Source of the DNA: Acidobacteriaceae bacterium
Lineage (GTDB): Bacteria > Acidobacteriota > Terriglobia > Terriglobales > Acidobacteriaceae
NCBI GenBank assembly: GCA_003151435.1
Contig: PLXP01000144.1
Span: forward strand, 7,422 to 71,421
Direction: 5' to 3'
DNA length: 64,000 nt
This document shows, one piece after another, positions 25,655 to 34,721 of this stretch; positions within the stretch are counted from its first letter, which is position 1; every line of letters begins with the position of its first letter. The notes beneath the pieces are model-generated. The model was not told the origin of the DNA and ran no database searches. It saw only the letters and a program-made list of their open reading frames with translations. Made by a program: the position numbers and the translations under genes.

Positions 25655-27109
25655 TCACACTGCGAGGAAGGCGACGATTCCCACCGCTGCACCGATCACC
25701 AGGCTCATTTTGTCGGTCAGGGCAAATACCACGGGGTCTTCGTTGAGTTCACCGCGCGAGGCCAGCAGCCATACCCGGCAAAGCCAAAGCACCATCAACG
25801 GCAAGATCAGCCAGAGCCATTGCGTGTGTCGATAGAGAATCGTCACGTCGTGGCTCCCAATGTAGTTGGCGAACACCACCACCGCTGCAAACGCGCTCGC
25901 GGTTCCGAAGGTTCGTATCTGTTCGATGTCAGCCACCAGGTACCCGCGGCCGTTATTTGGCTTCGAACCGAGGATGCGCATGTTCTCCAACTCGGCAAAG
26001 CGTTTGACAATGGCCAGCGACAGAAACAGAAAGATCGAGAACCCGCTCAGCCAATGCGAAATCGGCGTGTGCGTTGCCGCGCCGCCTCCCAGCAAACGCA
26101 GTGTATACAGTCCCGAGAGCACCAGCACATCCACCAGGGCAATGCGTTTCAGATAGGTGGAGTATGCCATGGTCGTGGCCAGGTAGAGCAGCAGCCAGCC
26201 TCCGAAGCGAAAGGGAAGATAGTGCGTTCCGCAGATCGCCAGCGCCAGGAAAACGGCAACAATGCCAAACCCTGTGAGTGCGGAGAGATCTCCTGACGCA
26301 AAGGGACGCTGCCGCTTTTGTGCATGACGCCGGTCCGCCTCAATGTCGAACATGTCGTTCACAATGTAAGCGGCTGAAGCGCTCAGGCTGAAACAGCAAA
26401 AGGCCATAAACGAGTGCAGCACTTTGCCGTGCGTGAACCGGTGCGCCAGCAGCATCGGAGCAAACACCAGCAGATTCTTCGCCCATTGATGCACGCGCAC
26501 GGCCTTCAACATGGTCCTCAGAGAATGAGGCCGTTCTTCAAACACGCGCGTTGGCACAATGCCGCGCGATCGCAGCCCTCTGCGCAGCGCCGCGCTCGGA
26601 TTAGCCACCATCGCCTCGGATGCGTGTGCCAGCAGCGGTAGATCGGGGCTGGCGTTGCCAATGTAATCAAAAGCCTCGGAGCCGAGATGAGCGCGCAACC
26701 CGTCCAGCTTGCGCTTTCCGGTCAGGTTGGTGGCTCCATCGCTGCCCAGCACCCCGCTGAAGATTCCAAGATGGTCGGCGACACGGCGCGCAAGGCGCAG
26801 GTCCGCGCCCGTCGCCAGGTAGATTGCTCGCCCTCGCGCCCGCTCCTGCTGCAAAAACTGCAGCAGCTTGCGGTTGTAGGGCAGATGCGCCACATCCAGC
26901 GATACTGACTCCGTGACGTATGCCTTGAAAGCCGCCTTGCCGCGAAAAAGCCGTCCGCAAAGCGCCGGCAAACGCCCCGGCCGGGTCCGCGCAAGCACCA
27001 GCAGCGAATCGACCAGCGTATCCGACTTGACGAGTGTGCCATCCAGATCGACGCAAAGTGGACGCAGCACTGCGGCGGGAGCTTCCGGCTCAAGAATGGT
27101 AGTTGCCAA
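25655..27109 (-). CDS. HAD-phosphatase / UbiA-family (decaprenyl-phosphate phosphoribosyltransferase-like) fusion protein
   Basis: TTG start with GAGGTGA SD. N-terminal HAD motif I CVDLDGTLVKSD. The C-terminal polytopic domain carries NDMFDIEADRRHAQKRQRPFASG. Confidence 0.8.
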   Translation of the reverse strand: MATTILEPEAPAAVLRPLCVDLDGTLVKSDTLVDSLLVLARTRPGRLPALCGRLFRGKAAFKAYVTESVSLDVAHLPYNRKLLQFLQQERARGRAIYLATGADLRLARRVADHLGIFSGVLGSDGATNLTGKRKLDGLRAHLGSEAFDYIGNASPDLPLLAHASEAMVANPSAALRRGLRSRGIVPTRVFEERPHSLRTMLKAVRVHQWAKNLLVFAPMLLAHRFTHGKVLHSFMAFCCFSLSASAAYIVNDMFDIEADRRHAQKRQRPFASGDLSALTGFGIVAVFLALAICGTHYLPFRFGGWLLLYLATTMAYSTYLKRIALVDVLVLSGLYTLRLLGGGAATHTPISHWLSGFSIFLFLSLAIVKRFAELENMRILGSKPNNGRGYLVADIEQIRTFGTASAFAAVVVFANYIGSHDVTILYRHTQWLWLILPLMVLWLCRVWLLASRGELNEDPVVFALTDKMSLVIGAAVGIVAFLAV

Positions 27110-27356
27110 CCGCTCACCTCATCGAGGATCGCTGACTAGCCCCAATGCACGTTTGCTGTGGGAAGTAACCGATCGCTCAATTGGACTGTTTTCCAGGGAA
27201 GGCCGCCCGTCACATCCTGACTGCAGGAAATGAACCGGCCCTCTGGGTGCAGATACACTCGCTGCCCACTGGTCAGGAACGTTTTTAGTATACAGTCGCC
27301 TCTAAATCCTTGAAAACCGTGCGGAATAAGGGGACAGGGGGAGAGAGTTGGAAACA

Positions 27357-27375
27357 CGCGGCCAGGGCGGCCGCG
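27357..27375 (-). terminator. Hairpin immediately 3' of tRNA-Ala
   Basis: On the minus strand: CGCGGCC-GCCCT-GGCCGCG followed by UGUUUCC. A 7-bp GC stem lies 7 nt after the CCA end. Confidence 0.4.
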
Positions 27376-27382
27376 CAAATTT

Positions 27383-27458
27383 TGGTGGAGCTGAGCGGGA
27401 TCGAACCGCTGGCCTCCTCGTTGCGAACGAGGCGCTCTCCCAGCTGAGCTACAGCCCC
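27383..27458 (-). tRNA. tRNA-Ala (anticodon CGC)
   Basis: The reverse complement GGGGCTGTAGCTCAGCTGGGAGAGCGCCTCGTTCGCAACGAGGAGGCCAGCGGTTCGATCCCGCTCAGCTCCACCA folds as a 76-nt cloverleaf. It has the G3:U70 Ala identity pair, anticodon loop TTCGCAA and an encoded CCA. Confidence 0.95.
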
Positions 27459-27596
27459 ACGACTTCCTTATCTTATCAGCGAGTAGAGAATCGCGGAAGG
27501 GGCGGAGTCACGGCCCGGCACGAAATACCACCGGTCGGTTTAGGCCAGGGGCGTCGGGACTGCACCCCGACCTTCCACGCCCCCGGCCCTCCCCAC

Positions 27597-28847
27597 CTAA
27601 AGCTGGTTCATGTTGGCCAGGAACTCGGCGTTATTGCGTACCTTCTCGAGACGGCTGATCAACAACTCCATAGCCTCGACGGGCGACAACGGATTGAGTA
27701 CCTTGCGCAGAATCCAGATGCGCTGCAATTCTTCCTTCGGAATCAGCAGCTCTTCCTTGCGGGTGCCCGACCGCTGGATGTCGATGGCCGGGAACACCCG
27801 CTTGTCCACCAGCTTGCGGTCCAGAATGATTTCCATGTTGCCGGTGCCCTTGAACTCTTCAAAGATGACTTCGTCCATGCGCGAACCGGTATCCACCAGC
27901 GCCGTTGCAATAATTGTCAGAGACCCGCCCTCTTCAATGTTGCGGGCCGCGCCAAAGAAGCGCTTGGGGCGCTGCAAAGCGTTCGAATCCACGCCTCCCG
28001 ACAGCACCTTGCCCGACGGGGGCACGATGGTGTTGTAGGCGCGCGCCAGGCGGGTGATCGAATCCAGCAGAATCACCACGTCGCGCTTGTGCTCCACCAG
28101 TCGCTTGGCCTTTTCGATCACCATCTCCGCCACCTGTACGTGGCGAGCCGCCGGCTCGTCAAAGGTGGAACTGATCACTTCGCCCTTCACCGACCGCTGC
28201 ATGTCCGTAACTTCTTCAGGCCGCTCGTCGATCAGCAGCACAATCAGCACGACGTCGGGGTGATTGGTGGAGATAGAGTTGGCGAGCGACTGCAACAGCA
28301 TGGTCTTGCCGGTGCGGGGCGGGGCGACGATGAGGCCGCGCTGGCCCTTGCCCACTGGGGTCAGCAGATCCATCACCCGGCCACTGGTGGCCTCGCGTAC
28401 GGTCTCCAGCTTGATGCGTTCCTGCGGATAGAGCGGCGTCAGGTTGTCAAACAGAATCTTGTTGCGCGTCTCTTCGGGCGACTCGAAGTTGATGGCTTCA
28501 ATCTTGACCAGCGCGAAATATTTTTCGCCTTCATGCGGCGGGCGCACGTTACCGCTGATCGAGTCGCCGGTCTTCAAATCGAACTTGCGAATCTGCGAGG
28601 GCGAAACGTAGATGTCGTCGGGGCCGGGCAGATAGTTGTAATCGGGCGAGCGCAGAAAGCCGTAGCCGTCGGGCAATATTTCAAGCACGCCCTCGGCAAA
28701 GATGTGGCCCTCTTTTTCGCTCTGGGCCTGGAGAATCTTGAAAATAAGATCCTGCTTGCGAAGACCGCTGGCGCCCGGAATCTCCAGGGTGCGCGCGATG
28801 CGGCTTAGTTCCGTGATGTTTTTCTCTTTGAGTTCAGCGATGGTCAT
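27597..28847 (-). CDS. rho: Transcription termination factor Rho
   Basis: [23 protein letters not shown] (Rho N-terminal domain), RNA-binding [17 protein letters not shown], Walker A APPRTGKT and [14 protein letters not shown] 28847 follows AGGTGA; the track starts at a TTG at 28859. Confidence 0.95.
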
Positions 28848-29073
28848 GTTCACCTGCAACGGGGCGGGATGGTAGTGAGGGAGAGTCGGAGAGGGGAATG
28901 TGCTCCGGGAAGTAAGGCAGGAGTTCGTTACGGCAGTTGACGCGGCCGCGCCTTGCAGCTTATCCCGAACTCAGTCAGTGGAGTATGAAAACACCGGGAA
29001 GAGCGGCCCCCTTGCACAGGAAAGCCGCCAGAAACCGTGACTTACTCAACTATACGCTTTTCGGGAAACCCGG

Positions 29074-29295
29074 CTATGCTGCTCGACGCTGCTCGACGGG
29101 CTGAACCGCGGGTGCCGCAAAGGGCCCCAGCGATCCAGGATTGGTGGTGTGAAAGCGGTCCAGAACCTCGTTCGTTGTGTCCTGTAGCCGCGTGTTGGGC
29201 TTGTGGAGCTTGCGGGTTGCCTTGCTTGCCAACTGGCAAAGCTGGTAACGGTTGGACACGTGAGAGAGTGCCCCAAATACCAAATCAGAACGCAT
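29074..29295 (-). CDS. Small conserved protein, possibly RNA polymerase omega-like
   Basis: ATG 29295 lies 8 nt after GGAG. MRSDLVFGALSHVSNRYQLCQLASKATRKLHKPN resembles the RpoZ core NRF/YxLxxxAxKRARxL. The assignment is tentative. Confidence 0.45.
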   Translation of the reverse strand: MRSDLVFGALSHVSNRYQLCQLASKATRKLHKPNTRLQDTTNEVLDRFHTTNPGSLGPFAAPAVQPVEQRRAA

Positions 29296-29837
29296 TACAA
29301 AATTCTCCTTCAAACAAATTAGCCGCCCGGCCGGAACTGCTTGGCGCCGCCAGTGCAGCGGACAGCCCAAACTCACGGCTGCCCTAATCTTCCATTCCAA
29401 GGGATTAGACGCACGGACCGTACGTCCAGTTCAAAAACTTTGATGCATTTCTGCACATTGCGAAACGTATCGTCTGATTTTTTGTGATACAAGCCCGGTC
29501 GCGCGTGCCGCTTGTCCAGGTTCAATGTGAGCCAAACTGAACACACCGCTGCACCAAATGATTGAGCAGAAGCTCACTCTATCGATGCGGGAAATGACAG
29601 ACACGCACACCCGGCCGAACTCTGCGATCTACCCTTTTGGATGGCACTCATGAATGTATACCGAGCCGGGTTTTGGGTCAATAGTTTTTTCAGAGGTTTC
29701 CCTCAGCCCCGCAGAGCAGCGAAATCCGCAACGTCACAGGCCCATAACAGCTTTTTCCCCTAGGAGATACGAGAAAGGATCCCGGTCCAATCCCCGGCCC
29801 CGGCCCCACCTCCCCGTACCACCCTGTAAACCCCGCA

Positions 29838-30077
29838 TCATCCTCTTTTCGACAGTCTTTTCCCGTCGAGGGGCCTCCTCCACGGCCTTCCATCCGGATC
29901 GGAAAGCAGCGGTGCCCCGTCCCCGTCCACCCCACAGAACTTCTGCCGCCGTGGAACCGACGCCTTCGGAGAGGCAAATCGCTCATCCAGGCGAAACATC
30001 CCAAGGGCCATCAGCCCCAGGAAGGGAATCATGATCACGAGTGTGTCCCATTCGGACAATAGGTTCGTTGCGTGCAT
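29838..30077 (-). CDS. Small single-pass membrane protein, paralogue A (FRLDE / SDPDGRPW motifs)
   Basis: GGAGG SD 8 nt upstream. One TM helix (LVIMIPFLGLMALGMF), then RLDERFAS...PRRQKF...SDPDGRPWRRP. It is paralogous to the neighbouring ORF. Confidence 0.6.
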   Translation of the reverse strand: MHATNLLSEWDTLVIMIPFLGLMALGMFRLDERFASPKASVPRRQKFCGVDGDGAPLLSDPDGRPWRRPLDGKRLSKRG

Positions 30078-30204
30078 TGGTAAACCTCCATAGCAGGCTT
30101 CTCGATGGACATGAGAGAGTTCTCATGCCTTCCATTCAGGTCATCGGCGAAGATTGGAGGTTCCTTAGAATCGGAGGTAACTTCGGGCATTGCGCGCGGA
30201 AAAC

Positions 30205-30420
30205 CTAAGAATTGGGCTTCTTCCACGGACGCCCGTCCGGATCGCTCTGCATCAAGTGCTTCTCGGCTAACGGGAACTCACGACGGCGCGGCGCAGCGCC
30301 ACTCTTCCGCGACGAGCTGAAGATCTCGTCCAGGCGGAAATATCCGACAAACAGCAACACGATCAAAGGAATGCCGAATAGAAAGTCGTCCCAGCCCGAA
30401 GTTGATAGATCCAGAAGCAT
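30205..30420 (-). CDS. Small single-pass membrane protein, paralogue B (FRLDE / SDPDGRPW motifs)
   Basis: ATG 30420 with GGGAGG SD. TM helix FLFGIPLIVLLFVGYF, then RLDEIFSS...PRRREF...SDPDGRPWKKP. Confidence 0.6.
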   Translation of the reverse strand: MLLDLSTSGWDDFLFGIPLIVLLFVGYFRLDEIFSSSRKSGAAPRRREFPLAEKHLMQSDPDGRPWKKPNS

Positions 30421-30552
30421 GTTCGACCTCCCGCAACGCTCGCGCCCATGACGCGAGAGCACATTTATACAGCGGGATTGCCTGGGGCGCAAGACAACTT
30501 TCAGGGGATCGTGCCGGTAACCAACCTCTTAGCCCCATCGCCAAAAGGCATG

Positions 30553-32112
30553 TCAGGCCCAGTAACTGCGGTCGAGTGTGCGGTATTGAATGGCTTCGGC
30601 CAGGTGCGCCACGCTCAGGTTCTCCGCGCCTTCAAGGTCGGCAATGGTCCGCGCCACTTTGAGAATGCGATCATGGGCCCGCGCGGTCAGCCCCTGCTGC
30701 TGCATGGCGCGTTCCAACAGTCGCTCGGCGTCGGGGCCCAGTTCACAGTAGACGCGAATCTGGCGCGTAGTCATCTGCGCGTTGGAGTAGATCTTCTCGC
30801 CGAACTTGCGGAAGCGCTGCTGCTGGCGCTCGCGGGCCATCAGCACCCGCGCGCGAATCTCACTGGAACCTTCGGCAGCCGATCCGCCACGCAACTCCTT
30901 GTATTGAACGGCGGGAACCTCAATATGAATATCGATGCGATCGAGCAGCGGCCCGGAGATCTTCGCCACGTAGCGCTGAATCATCGGCGGAGTGCACATG
31001 CACTCGCGCGATTTGTCGTTGAAGAAGCCGCAAGGGCAGGGGTTCATCGCCGCAGCCAGCATAAACCGCGCCGGAAAGCTCAGCGACATGCTGGCCCGCG
31101 CAATGGTCACGGTATGGTCTTCAAGCGGCTGGCGCAACACTTCAAGCACATTGCGCGGAAACTCCGGCAACTCATCCAGAAACAAAAGTCCGTTGTGCGC
31201 CAGCGAAACTTCACCCGGCCGAGGCACAGCGCCGCCGCCAATCAGCCCCGCGTCGGAGATCGTATGATGCGGCGAGCGGAACGGCCGCTGTGTCACCAGC
31301 CCCGCCGCCGCGTCCAGCACGCCGGCCACGGAATGGATCTTGGTCGTTTCCAAGGCCTCATCGAAGGTGAGCGGCGCAAGAATGGAGGGCAGCCGCTTGG
31401 CCAGCATGGTCTTGCCTGAACCGGGCGGCCCGATCATCAGGATGTTATGGCTGCCCGCCGCGGCCACTTCCAAAGCACGCTTGGCCGTATGCTGGCCGCG
31501 CACATCCTTGAAGTCAACGGTGAAATGCTGCAGCTCGCCCAGCAGCGTTTCAGTCGCCACGCGAAACGGCTCACGCTGAATCACGCCCACCACCGCGCTG
31601 TTGAGCAAGTCCAGCACATCGAGCAGCGAAGCCACCGGGTACACATTCACGCCTTCCACCACGGCAGCTTCAGCAGCGTTGCCCAAAGGCAGAATCAGGT
31701 TCGGAATATTTCTATCGCGCGCGAGAATCGCTACAGACAACATGCCGGGCACAGAACGCACGGTGCCATCGAGGCCCAGTTCGCCCACCAGAAGGAACTG
31801 GCTCAGGTCTTTCACGCGCAGTGCGCCGTAGGCCCCCAGGATGCTGACTGCGATGGGAAGATCGAATCCGGAGCCTTCCTTCTTCAAATCGGCCGGCGCC
31901 AGGTTGATGGTGATCTGTGTCGGCGGAATCGTGTAGCCGGAGTTCTTAATGGCCGCGCGCACACGGTCGCGGCTTTCGCGCACCGCTGCGTCGGGCAGGC
32001 CCACGGTGTGGAACACGTCTTTGTCCGTCGCAATGCCGCTGTAATCGACTTCCACGTCGATCAGGTTGGCGTCAATTCCATAGACGGCCGCACTGAGGGC
32101 TTTAAAATGCAT
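30553..32112 (-). CDS. comM: YifB/ComM family Mg-chelatase-like AAA+ ATPase
   Basis: N-terminal Lon-protease-like domain (VEVDYS...[22 protein letters not shown]), Walker [23 protein letters not shown], and a C-terminal Mg-chelatase subunit ChlI domain. Confidence 0.9.
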
Positions 32113-32305
32113 GATCGATAAGTTGCAGCGAGTGTATCAGAAAGCACGAACATCGAGCCGGTATCAGGGATCACAAACCAGGCCATCGCATCAACATATT
32201 CCGATTGCGCGCACCTTGAGCGCGGCACAATCCGGCGATGAGGCCGCGCACTTTGCGGGCCCCTTCCTCGCCGATCGTCTTTGTGCCTGGTCTTTGTGAG
32301 CCGTA

Positions 32306-32935
32306 TCAGTGGCGGTCGTGTCCGCCTGTCAGTTGAGTCATGGCCTGTTGATAGCCACGCCGAAAGGCTTCACGATACTCGCGTTGCAGTTGGTCCGGAA
32401 CATTCGGGCGGCGGTACTCATCGCGGTTGTTGGGGTCGGGCCGGCGGTGGTTGTCATAGTCCTTCCGCGCGCCATCCATACCATCTTGAAAGCCGCGGCG
32501 CTGAATCTCGCTGCCACGTTCCTGATCCATATCCCGTCCGCGCTCCGGTTCATGCATCTGAGGCTCCGGTGGGCGCATGGGCTGTGCAGGGCCGCCCATC
32601 AGGTGAGCCATACCGCGTTCGTAGCCGCGACGAAATCCTTCGCGGTACGCTTCTCGCACTCCCCAAGGAACACTGGGATGACGATACTCGTCGCGGTTGT
32701 TCACATCAGACCGGCGGTGGTTGTCAAAATCCCGGCGCGCGCCTTCGATGCCGTCATGAAAGCCGCGGCGTTGCACTTCCTGCCACTCCTGCGGAGGCGC
32801 ATCCCACGCGCCGCGTTCCTGTCCATACCCAGCCGCGGGTGAAGCCGCAGCCACGCCCGATGCGTTGGCGGTGGCCAGCCCGGCGCCACCCAAAAAGAGC
32901 GCAAGTACCGGCAATACCAGTCGATTCAGAATCAT
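32306..32935 (-). CDS. Secreted protein built from two about 65-aa repeats (period 90 aa)
   Basis: ATG 32935 after AAGGAAG, with signal MILNRLVLPVLALFLGGAGLATANA. QRRGFHDGIEGARRDFDNHRRSDVNNRDEYRHPSVP...FRRGYERGM is repeated as QRRGFQDGMDGARKDYDNHRRPDPNNRDEYRRPNVP...FRRGYQQAM. Confidence 0.65.
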   Translation of the reverse strand: MILNRLVLPVLALFLGGAGLATANASGVAAASPAAGYGQERGAWDAPPQEWQEVQRRGFHDGIEGARRDFDNHRRSDVNNRDEYRHPSVPWGVREAYREGFRRGYERGMAHLMGGPAQPMRPPEPQMHEPERGRDMDQERGSEIQRRGFQDGMDGARKDYDNHRRPDPNNRDEYRRPNVPDQLQREYREAFRRGYQQAMTQLTGGHDRH

Positions 32936-33066
32936 AGGTCGATCTTCCTTTGCTTCAGAGAGTTTCCGAAATGGTACTCCCTGTGCAGGAAGAATGCAGT
33001 GAGCCAAGCCGGCCCGGGCTTTTCTTTCTTCGCATGCCTCGCAGTTGTCATGCAGGCAACACAACC

Positions 33067-33103
33067 CGCTAACTCGCCAGGCCGCGCAGCGGCGCTAACT
33101 CGC
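33067..33103. repeat. Direct repeat CGCTAACTCGC x2 (26-nt spacing)
   Basis: Identical 11-mers at 33067-33077 and 33093-33103, in the divergent spacer between the repeat-protein gene and sdaA. The same CGCTAAC word family occurs at 44576 and 55503. Confidence 0.6.
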
Positions 33104-33201
33104 AGGTTTTGCAATGAACCGTCGGTGCTGCTGTCGGATTAACTTGAATGATCACATTAGCGGGAGAATCTCGGGCACACCACCCGCATCAGATCCAGTT
33201 C

Positions 33202-33250
33202 TCCCTATTCCCTATTCCCTGTTCCATGATCCCTGTCCCTTCACCCCTCT
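33202..33250. repeat. Heptanucleotide tandem array (TCCCTRT-type, about 7 copies)
   Basis: TCCCTAT TCCCTAT TCCCTGT TCCATGA TCCCTGT CCCTTCA CCCCTCT, ending 20 nt before the sdaA GTG start. Confidence 0.7.
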
Positions 33251-33269
33251 CCCCCGGTACAATCTCTCC

Positions 33270-34721
33270 GTGACGAGTTTTTTCGATCTCTACAAAATCG
33301 GTGTTGGCCCTTCGAGTTCACACACCATGGGCCCCATGCGCGCGGCCTTTCGTTTTGCCCACGGTCTCATGGAGCGCGGACTCCTGCCGGAAGTCAATCG
33401 CGTGCAGGCGGAACTGTTCGGCTCGCTTGCTCTTACCGGAATGGGGCACGCCACCGACCGCGCCGTGCTGCTGGGCCTCGCGGGCAACGAGCCCGCCACC
33501 ATCGACCCCGCTTCCATCTCCGCCTCCGTTGCCGCTATTCGTGAGACAAAGCATCTGCCTCTCGCCGCGGAGCGTTCCATCCCGTTTGACGAATCACGCG
33601 ACCTGCTCTTCAATCGCTCCACCATGTTTCCTCCCGGCGCGCGCACGCAGCACCCCAACGGTCTGCGATTGACGGCGTACGACACCGGCGGCGCAGTGCT
33701 CGATGAGCGCACCTTCTTCTCCATCGGCGGTGGATTCATCACCGAGGACAGCGCCGCACCTGCGACGGATCCAACGGCGACAGGCGGCGGTGCAACTAAA
33801 CAAGATCCGCTGATTCCATTTCCTTTTCACAGTGCGGCCGAACTGCTGCAGATTGCAGAGATCAACCACCTCACCATTAGCCAGGTCATGTTGCAGAACG
33901 AGTGTTCCCTCATGCCGCGGAATCTTGCACCGCACGATGCCGAGCCGTCACCGGAGGCGCAGGTGCGTGCGCGCATCGAACATATCTGGCAGGCCATGCG
34001 CACTTGCGTAGACCGCGGCATGACCACCGAGGGCATTCTACCCGGCGGCTTGAATGTGCGCCGCCGCGCCAAACGGCTCGCCGAGCGGCTGCGCGACAAA
34101 GAGGCCAATGGCAAGAGCAGCGATCCGCTGGCCCCGCTCGATTGGGTCACCGTCTACGCCATGGCTGTGAATGAAGAGAACGCCGCGGGAGGCCGCGTGG
34201 TGACCGCGCCCACAAATGGAGCCGCGGGCGTAGTGCCGGCCGTGGCCCTCTACTACGAGCACTTCACTCCCGATGCGGATCACGAGGGCATCATGCGCTA
34301 CTTCCTCACCTCCGCCGCCGTCGGCATCCTATATAAGGAGAACGCGTCCATTAGCGGCGCTGAAGTCGGCTGCCAGGGAGAAGTGGGCGTGGCCTGCTCC
34401 ATGGCCGCGGGCGGGTTGACCGCGGCGCTCGGCGGCACCAACGCGCAAATCGAGCACGCCGCCGAAATCGCGATGGAACACAACCTCGGCATGACCTGCG
34501 ATCCCATTGGCGGACTGGTGCAAATCCCGTGCATCGAACGCAATGCCATGGGCGCGGTCAAGGCGGTGCATGCCTCGCGCATCGCCATGAACGAAACCGA
34601 GGGCCACAAGGTTTCGCTCGACCAGGTCATCCGCACCATGTATCTCACCGGCCTCGACATGCAATCGCGCTACAAGGAAACAAGCCTTGCCGGCCTTGCC
34701 CTCAACATCATCGAGTGCTAA
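33270..34721 (+). CDS. sdaA: L-serine ammonia-lyase (Fe-S dependent, single chain)
   Basis: GTG 33270 gives [23 protein letters not shown], the canonical SdaA N-terminus. The C-terminal alpha-domain has [18 protein letters not shown]. The 52-codon upstream extension in the track is implausible. Confidence 0.9.

What the first reader, a model, noticed from the sequence alone, without database searches (positions are those of the whole stretch)
29838..30420. Tandem paralogous micro-membrane proteins with FRLDE and SDPDGRPW motifs downstream of comM
**Seen in sequence**
- Two adjacent minus-strand ORFs of 79 and 71 aa.
- Each has a strong SD (GGAGG or GGGAGG at 6-8 nt).
- Each has one N-terminal TM helix.
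- They share a collinear motif string: W-D ... IP ... G-(M/Y)FRLDE-(R/I)F-(A/S)S ... PRR..F ... SDPDGRPW(R/K)(R/K)P.
- Conservation is concentrated in the juxtamembrane and C-terminal motifs, while the linkers diverge. This argues for selection on the protein rather than chance ORFs.

**Inference**
- I do not recognise the motif from any described family.
- They could be small regulatory or anchoring membrane proteins, or a duplicated effector/adaptor pair.
Basis: seen in the sequence. Interest (0 to 1): 0.6.

Follow-up and report, generated by a model that had tools for sequence, protein, structure and literature searches.

The report
Orphan small membrane protein pair
The two tiny adjacent genes are real, selected paralogues of an undescribed 70-80-residue single-pass membrane protein family found only in a narrow group of peat and soil Acidobacteria (Terracidiphilus-like); their function is still unknown.

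Summary
Two minus-strand ORFs (79 aa, 29838-30077; 71 aa, 30205-30420) lie downstream of comM. Each has a Shine-Dalgarno site and one hydrophobic helix, and they are 44% identical (E 9e-16).

They belong to a real protein family:
- 570 clusters (50% identity) in metagenomes, all small stand-alone proteins.
- 42 species-level loci, all in MAGs labelled Terracidiphilus/Acidobacteriaceae/Acidobacteriota.
- Nearly always the same slot: comM, small gene(s), about 550 nt, omega-like gene, rho.
- The reading frame is open in 52/52 orthologues; median dN/dS is about 0.38.
- FRLDE and DPDG are near-invariant, with exactly 27 residues between them in 80% of members.

The tandem pair is an old duplication kept in a sub-clade, and each copy forms its own clade. 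The family was found in only 2 of 142 sampled genera of the family and in no other genus of the phylum. One species of the same genus has a clean empty site.

Pfam, NCBIfam, PHROGs, PADLOC, PDB sequence and fold searches, and the literature gave no match. AlphaFold gives a confident helix (residues 3-35) and a weakly supported mini beta-meander built on two DxDG turns. Charge distribution predicts N-out/C-in topology.

My best guess, which is inferred, is a membrane-anchored accessory or regulatory subunit. Its cytoplasmic tail would dock a partner that is not yet identified. The omega-like/rho operon has its own promoter, so these are not its leader peptides. Interest is modest.

The parts
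30205..30420 (-). ORF B: the comM-proximal paralogue, 71 aa, stop included. It has an N-terminal hydrophobic helix, FRLDE, a basic linker and SDPDGRPWKKPNS. It lacks the first (CGxDxDG) turn.
   Evidence: family profile E 3e-24; groups with the comM-proximal copies of six other two-copy species in one clade, support 98/77 (after correcting the swapped L021 labels); called as a 71-aa gene in other assemblies
29838..30077 (-). ORF A: the second paralogue, 79 aa, stop included. Layout: helix 3-35 with TM about 12-28, FRLDE 28-32, basic linker, C48-G-V-D-G-D-G54 turn, and S59-DPDGRPW66.
   Evidence: profile E 8e-35; AlphaFold models; groups with the second copies in one clade, support 97/97
30427..30432 (-). 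Shine-Dalgarno GGGAGG, 6 nt before the ATG of ORF B
   Evidence: read; orthologues also carry GGAG/GGAGG 6-10 nt before their ATG/GTG/TTG starts
30085..30089 (-). Shine-Dalgarno GGAGG, 7 nt before the ATG of ORF A
   Evidence: read
30463..30520 (-). Promoter-like region of the small-gene unit (inferred). It contains TTACCG (30520-30515), which matches the motif (A/G)TTACCT..N16..TCTAAT conserved upstream in most species, and TTGCGC-N17-TATAAA with TG directly before the -10 (30492-30464).
   Evidence: alignment of upstream regions from 44 loci; read. No transcription data; below the threshold of the consensus scan.
29653..29681 (-). Boundary of the unit. This is a conserved sigma-70-like promoter (TTGACC-N17-TACATT in the window; TATAC(T/A) in most orthologues). 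It belongs to the downstream omega-like/rho operon and lies about 155 nt after the stop of ORF A.
   Evidence: conserved in 41 aligned orthologous spacers and followed by a 340-373-nt leader. It also matches the empty site of G186.

Best explanation
**Shown**
- ORF A and ORF B are two expressed-looking, selected paralogues of an undescribed family of about 73-aa bacterial proteins.
- The family is restricted to a narrow Terracidiphilus-like clade of Acidobacteriaceae.
- Each protein has a short acidic N-terminal stub (S-G-W-D-T) and one hydrophobic helix with a near-invariant mid-helix proline.
- F-R-L-D-E follows at the end of that helix, then a basic linker of fixed length, then a tail G-x-D-x-(D/N)-G-x-P-x-L-S-D-P-D-G-R-P-W.
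- The pair arose by an old tandem duplication that a sub-clade has kept.

**Inferred**
- The helix spans the inner membrane, with the N-terminus in the periplasm and the roughly 45-residue tail in the cytoplasm (positive-inside rule).
- The tail folds, perhaps only on binding, into a three-stranded mini-meander built on two DxDG turns.
- The protein acts as a small membrane-anchored accessory or regulatory subunit. The TM helix plus FRLDE would pack against a larger membrane protein, and the tail would dock onto that partner's cytoplasmic face or recruit a soluble one. This is how AcrZ, MgtS or MgrB-type small proteins work.
- In two-copy species, A and B may act as a hetero-oligomer.
- The partner is unknown. 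Gene neighbourhood does not identify it.
For: **Real, selected family**
- 685 clusters at 90% identity and 570 clusters at 50% identity. All of the best 150 are 65-193 aa, and none is a domain of a large protein.
- 42 species loci with the same synteny.
- The frame is open in 52/52 orthologues, against 3-29/52 for the other five frames.
- Median dN/dS is 0.38, and the third codon position is the most variable.
- Shine-Dalgarno sites precede the starts.

**Membrane topology**
- Mean Kyte-Doolittle is above 2.1 over 17 residues.
- The helix at 3-35 has pLDDT above 90, and P18 is conserved at 96%.
- Net charge is -0.57 before the helix and +3.5 after it across 229 members.

**Defined tail geometry rather than a floppy linker**
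- Exactly 27 residues separate FRLDE and DPDG in 184/229 members. G49, D51 and G54 are 78-90% conserved.
- AlphaFold places beta-bridges at 49-50/56-57/59/65, with block-mean pLDDT 64-74 for residues 41-70.

**Own transcription unit**
- A conserved motif lies upstream.
- A separate conserved promoter for the downstream operon lies after the stop.

**Old duplication with divergence**
- Each paralogue forms its own clade.
- Several A-type copies in two-copy species have lost R29 (FGLDE/LGLDE), while their B partners keep it.
Against: - There is no expression, localisation or interaction evidence.
- No homology to any characterised small regulator was found.
- No partner gene is conserved next to it. 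Insertions beside the gene in rearranged loci are heterogeneous.
- The tail model has low to moderate confidence.
- All carriers found in the genome-contig scan are MAGs, so nothing can be read from a cultured strain.
- The functional class is chosen by architecture and by exclusion of alternatives, not by a positive test.
Confidence: 0.45

Rival explanations
1. Membrane-insertion-monitoring arrest peptide of the MifM/SecM/VemP type. The N-terminal TM segment would be pulled by YidC/Sec while the ribosome stalls on the conserved C-terminal DPDGRPW motif. The stall would regulate a downstream cistron.
For: - Same architecture as MifM (own knowledge): a short acidic N-out stub, one TM and a conserved C-terminal acidic/Pro/Trp motif.
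- The distance from the end of the TM (F28) to W66 is fixed at about 38 residues, close to the length of the ribosomal exit tunnel.
- The tail after W is short, 7 residues in 81 of 229 members.
Against: - No regulated cistron follows. The next gene is 540 nt away and has its own conserved promoter about 155 nt after the stop.
- That gene is an omega-like gene followed by rho, not sec or yidC.
- FRLDE, P18 and the periplasmic SGWDT are conserved as strongly as the C-terminal motif. This points to a role for the mature protein.
- Two copies in series are not expected for such a sensor.
Confidence: 0.05
2. Type I toxin-like or holin-like membrane-damaging peptides, with the tandem copies resembling multi-copy type I toxin-antitoxin loci.
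For: - Small single-TM peptides with a charged tail lie in an intergenic slot and are tandemly duplicated.
- No annotated function.
Against: - Distribution is strictly syntenic, usually single-copy and vertical-looking, in one chromosomal slot across 42 species.
- Only two copies exist in this genome.
- No hit in PADLOC or PHROGs, and no phage or mobile context.
- At 71-79 aa, with a precisely conserved 45-residue cytoplasmic tail, it is longer and more constrained than typical type I toxins (own knowledge).
- An antisense RNA could not be tested.
Confidence: 0.07
3. Membrane-tethered cation-binding module. The acidic DxDG/DPDG turns, with C48, would chelate a divalent or trivalent metal at the inner face of the membrane. 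This could buffer or sense metals in acidic peat and soil.
For: - Conserved carboxylates D51, D53/N53, D60 and D62, plus C48 (63%), sit in two consecutive turns.
- They loosely resemble DxDxDG-type and thrombospondin-type-3 calcium loops (own knowledge).
- Carriers come from peat, bog, fen, wood and soil samples.
Against: - The motif is DxDG, not DxDxDG, so the defining spacing is not met.
- No Pfam hit to EF-hand or TSP3 models.
- The predicted cytoplasmic location argues against calcium.
- The B-type paralogues lack the first turn altogether.
Confidence: 0.08
4. Chance ORFs in GC-rich non-coding DNA, or conserved non-coding or antisense elements rather than proteins.
For: - About half of the orthologues also have open antisense frames over the same 66 codons.
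- No expression data.
Against: - The sense frame is open in 52/52 orthologues.
- Substitution is amino-acid-level, with dN/dS about 0.4 and the third position most variable.
- Shine-Dalgarno sites precede the starts.
- Hundreds of diverged homologues keep the same motifs and length.
Confidence: 0.02

Closest known systems
Small regulatory or accessory inner-membrane proteins of Enterobacteria (AcrZ, MgtS, MgrB, KdpF class; own knowledge)
   Same: They are under 100 aa with a single TM helix, and the gene stands as its own unit. They act by binding a larger membrane protein. No enzymatic domain is present.
   Different: There is no sequence or profile similarity. This family is longer and has a 45-residue cytoplasmic tail with a precisely spaced, invariant DPDG motif. 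It sits in a different phylum, and no partner is known.
MifM of Bacillus subtilis and other monitoring arrest peptides (SecM, VemP, ApdA/ApdP; own knowledge)
   Same: N-out/C-in single-pass topology with a short acidic N-terminal stub, a conserved C-terminal acidic/Pro/Trp-containing motif, and a fixed distance from the TM.
   Different: It is not followed by a coupled sec or yidC cistron. An independent promoter and a 340-373-nt leader separate it from the next gene. The juxtamembrane motif is conserved as well.
YajC (Sec translocon accessory subunit; own knowledge)
   Same: One N-terminal TM helix is followed directly by a basic stretch and a small beta-rich cytoplasmic module.
   Different: No Pfam YajC hit. 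The tail here is about half the size, and its fold is only weakly predicted.
NCBIfam NF040514, CAL67264 family membrane protein (weak hit only)
   Same: A small membrane protein. Residues 7-32 of ORF A align to positions 5-30 of the 57-position model.
   Different: E 0.083 and 13.2 bits against a cutoff of 50. This is hydrophobic-helix similarity only, and ORF B does not hit. Not a member.

Membership tests
Any curated protein family (Pfam-A, NCBIfam, PHROGs, PADLOC, PDB chains) | Profile match above the curated or significance threshold | tested here: not met
   - Pfam: 0 hits at E<=10.
- NCBIfam: only 13.2 bits against a cutoff of 50.
- PHROGs: E 0.08.
- PADLOC: none.
- PDB profile search: best E 0.72.
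- Foldseek against PDB: no match.
Monitoring arrest peptides (MifM/SecM/VemP type) | N-terminal TM or signal segment plus a conserved C-terminal motif at a fixed distance | tested here: met
   TM at about 12-28. DPDGRPW at 60-66, with fixed 27-residue spacing from FRLDE in 80% of 229 members.
Monitoring arrest peptides (MifM/SecM/VemP type) | Lies directly upstream of, and is translationally or structurally coupled to, a sec/yidC-type gene | tested here: not met
   The downstream gene is an omega-like gene followed by rho, 540 nt away, behind its own conserved promoter.
Monitoring arrest peptides (MifM/SecM/VemP type) | Ribosome stalling on the motif | not testable with these tools
   Needs toeprinting or an in vitro translation assay.
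Type I toxin-antitoxin toxins | Overlapping or adjacent antisense RNA antitoxin | not testable with these tools
There is no Rfam hit in 26500-33500 apart from tRNA-Ala and one sub-threshold match beside it.
Type I toxin-antitoxin toxins | Patchy, multi-locus or mobile distribution | tested here: not met
   One syntenic slot in 42 species. Only these two copies exist in the genome.
DxDxDG / thrombospondin-type-3 calcium-binding loops | D-x-D-x-D-G spacing and a profile match | tested here: not met
   The motifs are D-x-(D/N)-G and D-P-D-G. No Pfam hit.
Small single-pass membrane accessory/regulatory proteins (functional class, no sequence definition) | Under 100 aa, one TM helix, no enzymatic domain | tested here: met
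Small single-pass membrane accessory/regulatory proteins (functional class, no sequence definition) | Physical binding to, and modulation of, a larger membrane protein | not testable with these tools
   No multimer prediction or interaction data are available. The neighbourhood gives no candidate.

The most novel reading that the evidence does not exclude
The family is a lineage-specific invention. It may have been born de novo in the ancestral comM / omega-like intergenic spacer of a Terracidiphilus-like ancestor. It then became fixed and was duplicated. It may work by an undescribed mechanism in which a membrane-tethered mini beta-meander (two DxDG turns) acts either as a co-translational force or arrest sensor or as a new docking module.

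The evidence does not exclude this. No homologue was found outside the clade, the empty sites carry no remnant, and the geometry is fixed.
Probability: 0.1. Interest if true: 0.65.

Novelty: new member of a known kind. Interest (0 to 1): 0.3.

Why it matters
Acidobacteriaceae of the Terracidiphilus type are abundant in peat, wood and acidic soils. A small protein that is conserved in at least 42 species and in hundreds of metagenomic clusters, and that no database describes, is a concrete and cheap target for small-protein biology: it is 73 aa, can be synthesised, and has two sharp motifs. Its presence or absence within a single genus, together with an ancestral empty site, also makes it a clean case for studying how lineage-restricted small genes arise and duplicate. 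Without a function or a partner it remains one of very many orphan small membrane proteins, so its immediate importance is modest.

Tried and rejected
**Searches that found nothing**
- Curated libraries and structures gave nothing: Pfam, NCBIfam, PHROGs, PADLOC, PDB sequence profile and Foldseek against PDB.
- A literature search for the motif strings (DPDGRPW, SDPDGR, FRLDE, DPDGRP) found only irrelevant papers.
- Earlier notes of this scan hold nothing on this family. One words query was malformed.

**Ideas tested and dropped**
- Single-sequence searches greatly under-detected the family: 3 proteins and 5 genomes. Profiles were needed.
- Leader peptide of the omega-like/rho operon: rejected. 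A conserved promoter lies between them, and the same promoter and leader exist in genomes without the small gene.
- Functional link to comM: not supported. comM, spacer, omega-like, rho is the ancestral arrangement in many genera without the gene. In one carrier a ComEA-like gene replaces comM upstream.
- Guilt by association in rearranged loci (L018, L036, L043, L046, L051): the inserted genes are heterogeneous.
- A partner carrying the same motif elsewhere in the genome: DPDGRP occurs twice more (C153, C251), about what chance predicts by my own estimate.
- A remnant or proto-gene in empty sites: nhmmer and blastn found none.
- The borderline phylum-level hit in G608 is an HNH endonuclease with an 'FLRPDGRPL' hairpin. 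I judged it chance or low-complexity similarity.
- The first attempt to scan genome contigs with the 30-sequence alignment failed for lack of a conserved stretch. A tighter alignment worked.

Full report
**1. The observation**

The region contains two minus-strand ORFs.
- ORF A is 29838..30077 (79 aa, ATG).
- ORF B is 30205..30420 (71 aa, ATG). A longer TTG-started frame reaches 30492.

In the sequence, GGAGG ends 7 nt before the ATG of A and GGGAGG ends 6 nt before the ATG of B. BLASTP of A against B gives 44% identity over 64 residues, E 9e-16.

The gene upstream (30553..32112, minus) carries the ChlI, Mg_chelatase and Mg_chelatase_C domains, so it is a ComM/YifB-type AAA+ protein. Downstream lie a 74-aa omega-like ORF (29074..29298), which has no Pfam hit, and then rho (27597..28859).

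The best 17-residue hydrophobic windows have mean Kyte-Doolittle 2.26 (A) and 2.15 (B). The N-terminal flanks are acidic and the C-terminal flanks are basic.

**2. Is it a real protein family?**

Single-sequence searches found little: three proteins, and five of 151 family genomes. A six-sequence profile found 685 clusters at 90% identity, mostly 73 aa, and the few that carry a name are 'hypothetical protein [Terracidiphilus sp.]'. An exhaustive HMMER search of 1.84 billion representatives found 570 clusters at E<=1e-3 and 348 at E<=1e-10. All of the best 150 are 65-193 aa, so this is a stand-alone small protein and never a domain of something larger.

A pattern scan of species-representative genomes returned 42 loci. 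All are MAGs labelled Terracidiphilus sp., Acidobacteriaceae or Acidobacteriota, from bog, fen, SPRUCE peat and Microflora Danica samples.

Evidence for coding and selection:
- Over the first 66 codons, the annotated frame is open in 52/52 family members. The other five frames are open in only 3-29 of 52.
- Nei-Gojobori dN/dS has a median of 0.38 over 413 pairs. The closest pairs give 0.11-0.67.
- Column entropy by codon position is 1.18/0.92/1.53.
- Orthologues start with ATG, GTG or TTG, mostly 6-10 nt after GGAG-type sites.
- Other assemblies of the same organism (wood and soil metagenomes, 66 index blocks) independently call the 71-aa and 79-aa genes.

Chance ORFs are excluded.

**3. Anatomy of the family**

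I tabulated 229 members (175 of them with the canonical spacing gave the column frequencies).
- **N-terminal stub:** M-(H/Q)-(D/E)-x-x-L-x-S-G-W-D-T.
- **Hydrophobic helix:** P18 at 96%, L23 at 81%.
- **Juxtamembrane motif:** F28 0.95, R29 0.85, L30 0.92, D31 0.99, E32 0.83.
- **Linker:** A35, P37, K38, then a basic run through R44-R45.
- **Tail:** C48 (0.63), G49, x, D51 (0.89), x, D/N53, G54 (0.90), x, P, x, L58, S/C/T59, D-P-D-G (invariant), R64, P65, W66.

Exactly 27 residues separate FRLDE from DPDG in 184 of 229 members; 208 fall within 26-28. The commonest tail after W66 is 7 residues. Mean net charge is -0.57 before the helix and +3.5 in the 20 residues from FRLDE onwards. By the positive-inside rule this predicts the N-terminus outside and the C-terminus in the cytoplasm.

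AlphaFold2 was run with a 30-row and then a 121-row alignment. Both give one long helix at residues 3-35, with mean pLDDT above 90 over residues 11-30. The rest is a low-to-moderate-confidence tail. In the deeper run, beta-bridges at 49-50/56-57/59/65 outline a small meander built on the two DxDG turns; mean pLDDT of the 10-residue blocks 41-50, 51-60 and 61-70 is 64, 74 and 64. Foldseek against the PDB found nothing.

**4. Genomic context and history**

In nearly all of the 42 loci the order on one strand is comM, small gene(s), a spacer of about 480-650 nt, the omega-like gene, then rho.

Eight loci, counting the window, have two copies: the window, L015, L016, L019, L021, L045, L049 and, independently, L056. 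G625 of the same genus also has two.

In the tree, the comM-proximal (B-type) copies form one clade (98/77) and the second (A-type) copies form another (97/97). The L021 labels were swapped by a coordinate artefact, which I corrected by hand. The pair is therefore an old duplication retained in a sub-clade, not a strain-specific event. The paralogues have since diverged:
- B-type copies have lost the first CGxDxDG turn and end soon after W.
- Several A-type copies in two-copy species have lost R29 (FGLDE/LGLDE) and have longer tails.

Distribution is narrow.
- A profile search of 301 genomes spread over 142 genera of the family found the gene in two genera only (g1 and g81).
- A sample of 401 genomes across the phylum found it only in g1, plus one borderline hit. 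That hit is an HNH endonuclease and I take it as chance.
- G186 belongs to the same genus and is 100% complete. There, comM is followed after about 520 nt by the omega-like gene and no small gene is present.
- Neither that site nor the comM / omega-like gaps of 29 other genera contain any protein-level or nucleotide-level remnant.

The omega-like gene itself is present in 57 of 61 genera, usually in the order comM, a 330-630-nt gap, omega-like, rho. The small gene therefore sits as a clean extra segment in an ancestral intergenic slot. Whether it was gained once (possibly de novo) or lost many times cannot be decided here.

**5. Transcription units**

The spacer after ORF A contains a conserved sigma-70-like promoter, TTGACC-N17-TATAC(T/A), at window 29681..29653. 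It is followed by a leader of 340-373 nt that keeps its length in 33 species. The same promoter region aligns to the empty site of G186. The omega-like/rho operon is therefore transcribed independently of the small genes.

Upstream of the first small gene, most species share a motif, (A/G)TTACCT..N16..TCTAAT, 60-95 nt before the start. This is probably the small gene's own promoter. The window has TTACCG plus a TG-TATAAA element.

**6. What it does**

Nothing identifies the function directly.

- **Best explanation.** The architecture is a single pass with N-out/C-in topology, a Pro-kinked helix, an invariant charged juxtamembrane motif, and a fixed-length basic linker carrying a small turn-rich module. 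This fits a membrane-anchored accessory or regulatory subunit that binds a larger partner, and I put that at about 0.45.
- **Arrest-peptide reading (MifM-like).** It is attractive on geometry, but the defining feature of a coupled downstream cistron fails. About 0.05.
- **Type I toxin or holin-like reading.** It fits the size and the tandem arrangement, but not the strict vertical synteny or the constrained tail. About 0.07.
- **Metal-binding reading.** It rests only on the acidic turns, and the DxDxDG spacing is not met. About 0.08.
- **Neighbourhood.** Rearranged loci offer no consistent partner.

**7. Novelty and verdict**

The family is undescribed in Pfam, NCBIfam, PHROGs, PADLOC, the PDB and the searched literature. 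It belongs to a very common kind, the orphan lineage-restricted small membrane proteins, so I rate it a new member of a known kind with interest about 0.3. The features that lift it slightly above the average orphan are:
- the sharp motifs and fixed geometry;
- the abundance of its carriers in peat and soil;
- the retained old duplication;
- the clean presence/absence polymorphism in an ancestral intergenic slot.

Noticed in passing
window 29299-29681 (minus strand): A conserved sigma-70-like promoter (TTGACC-N17-TATAC(T/A)) is followed by a 340-373-nt leader of nearly constant length in 33 species. It lies upstream of the omega-like gene and rho. Several sequence blocks and a few covarying hairpins are conserved, and there is no Rfam match. 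It may be a rho-autoregulatory leader or an undescribed structured 5' UTR.
   Followed up: partly
window 29074-29298 (minus strand): A 74-aa omega-like ORF (MRSDLVFGALSHVSNRYQLCQL...) has no Pfam hit. It is present in 57 of 61 genera of the family and lies directly upstream of rho in nearly all loci examined. A second, 40%-identical copy lies elsewhere in this genome at C153:23514-23729.
   Followed up: partly
window 30463-30520 and upstream regions of L015-L056: A conserved motif (A/G)TTACCT(T)GG ... N~16 ... TCTAAT lies 60-95 nt before the start of the small gene in most species. It is probably the gene's promoter or an operator.
   Followed up: partly
L088 (G186:C57:13000-18500): A complete genome of the same genus lacks the small gene. 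About 120 nt separate the end of comM from the omega-like promoter, with no remnant. This is a within-genus presence/absence polymorphism.
   Followed up: yes
L004/L036 (G062:C26) 959-1390 of L004: In one carrier the gene upstream of the small gene is not comM. It is a 143-aa ComEA-like helix-hairpin-helix protein, identified by reading the translation and not checked against Pfam. comM has been displaced, so linkage to comM is not obligatory.
   Followed up: no
L052, L055 (and L025, L050, L051): comM in all five long-read MAG loci, and the small gene in L052 and L055, are broken into several frames. These look like assembly indel errors rather than pseudogenes.
   Followed up: no
window 32306-33064 (minus strand): A 252-aa predicted secreted protein carries an internal Arg/Asp/Asn-rich repeat (RRGF.DG..GAR.D.DNHRR.D.NNRDEYR.P) and has no Pfam hit.
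   Followed up: no
L095 (G608:C1:3644835-3644960): An HNH endonuclease in a very GC-rich genome of another family of the phylum gives a borderline profile match (E 4e-4) through an 'FLRPDGRPL' hairpin. I judged it chance similarity of turn motifs.
   Followed up: yes
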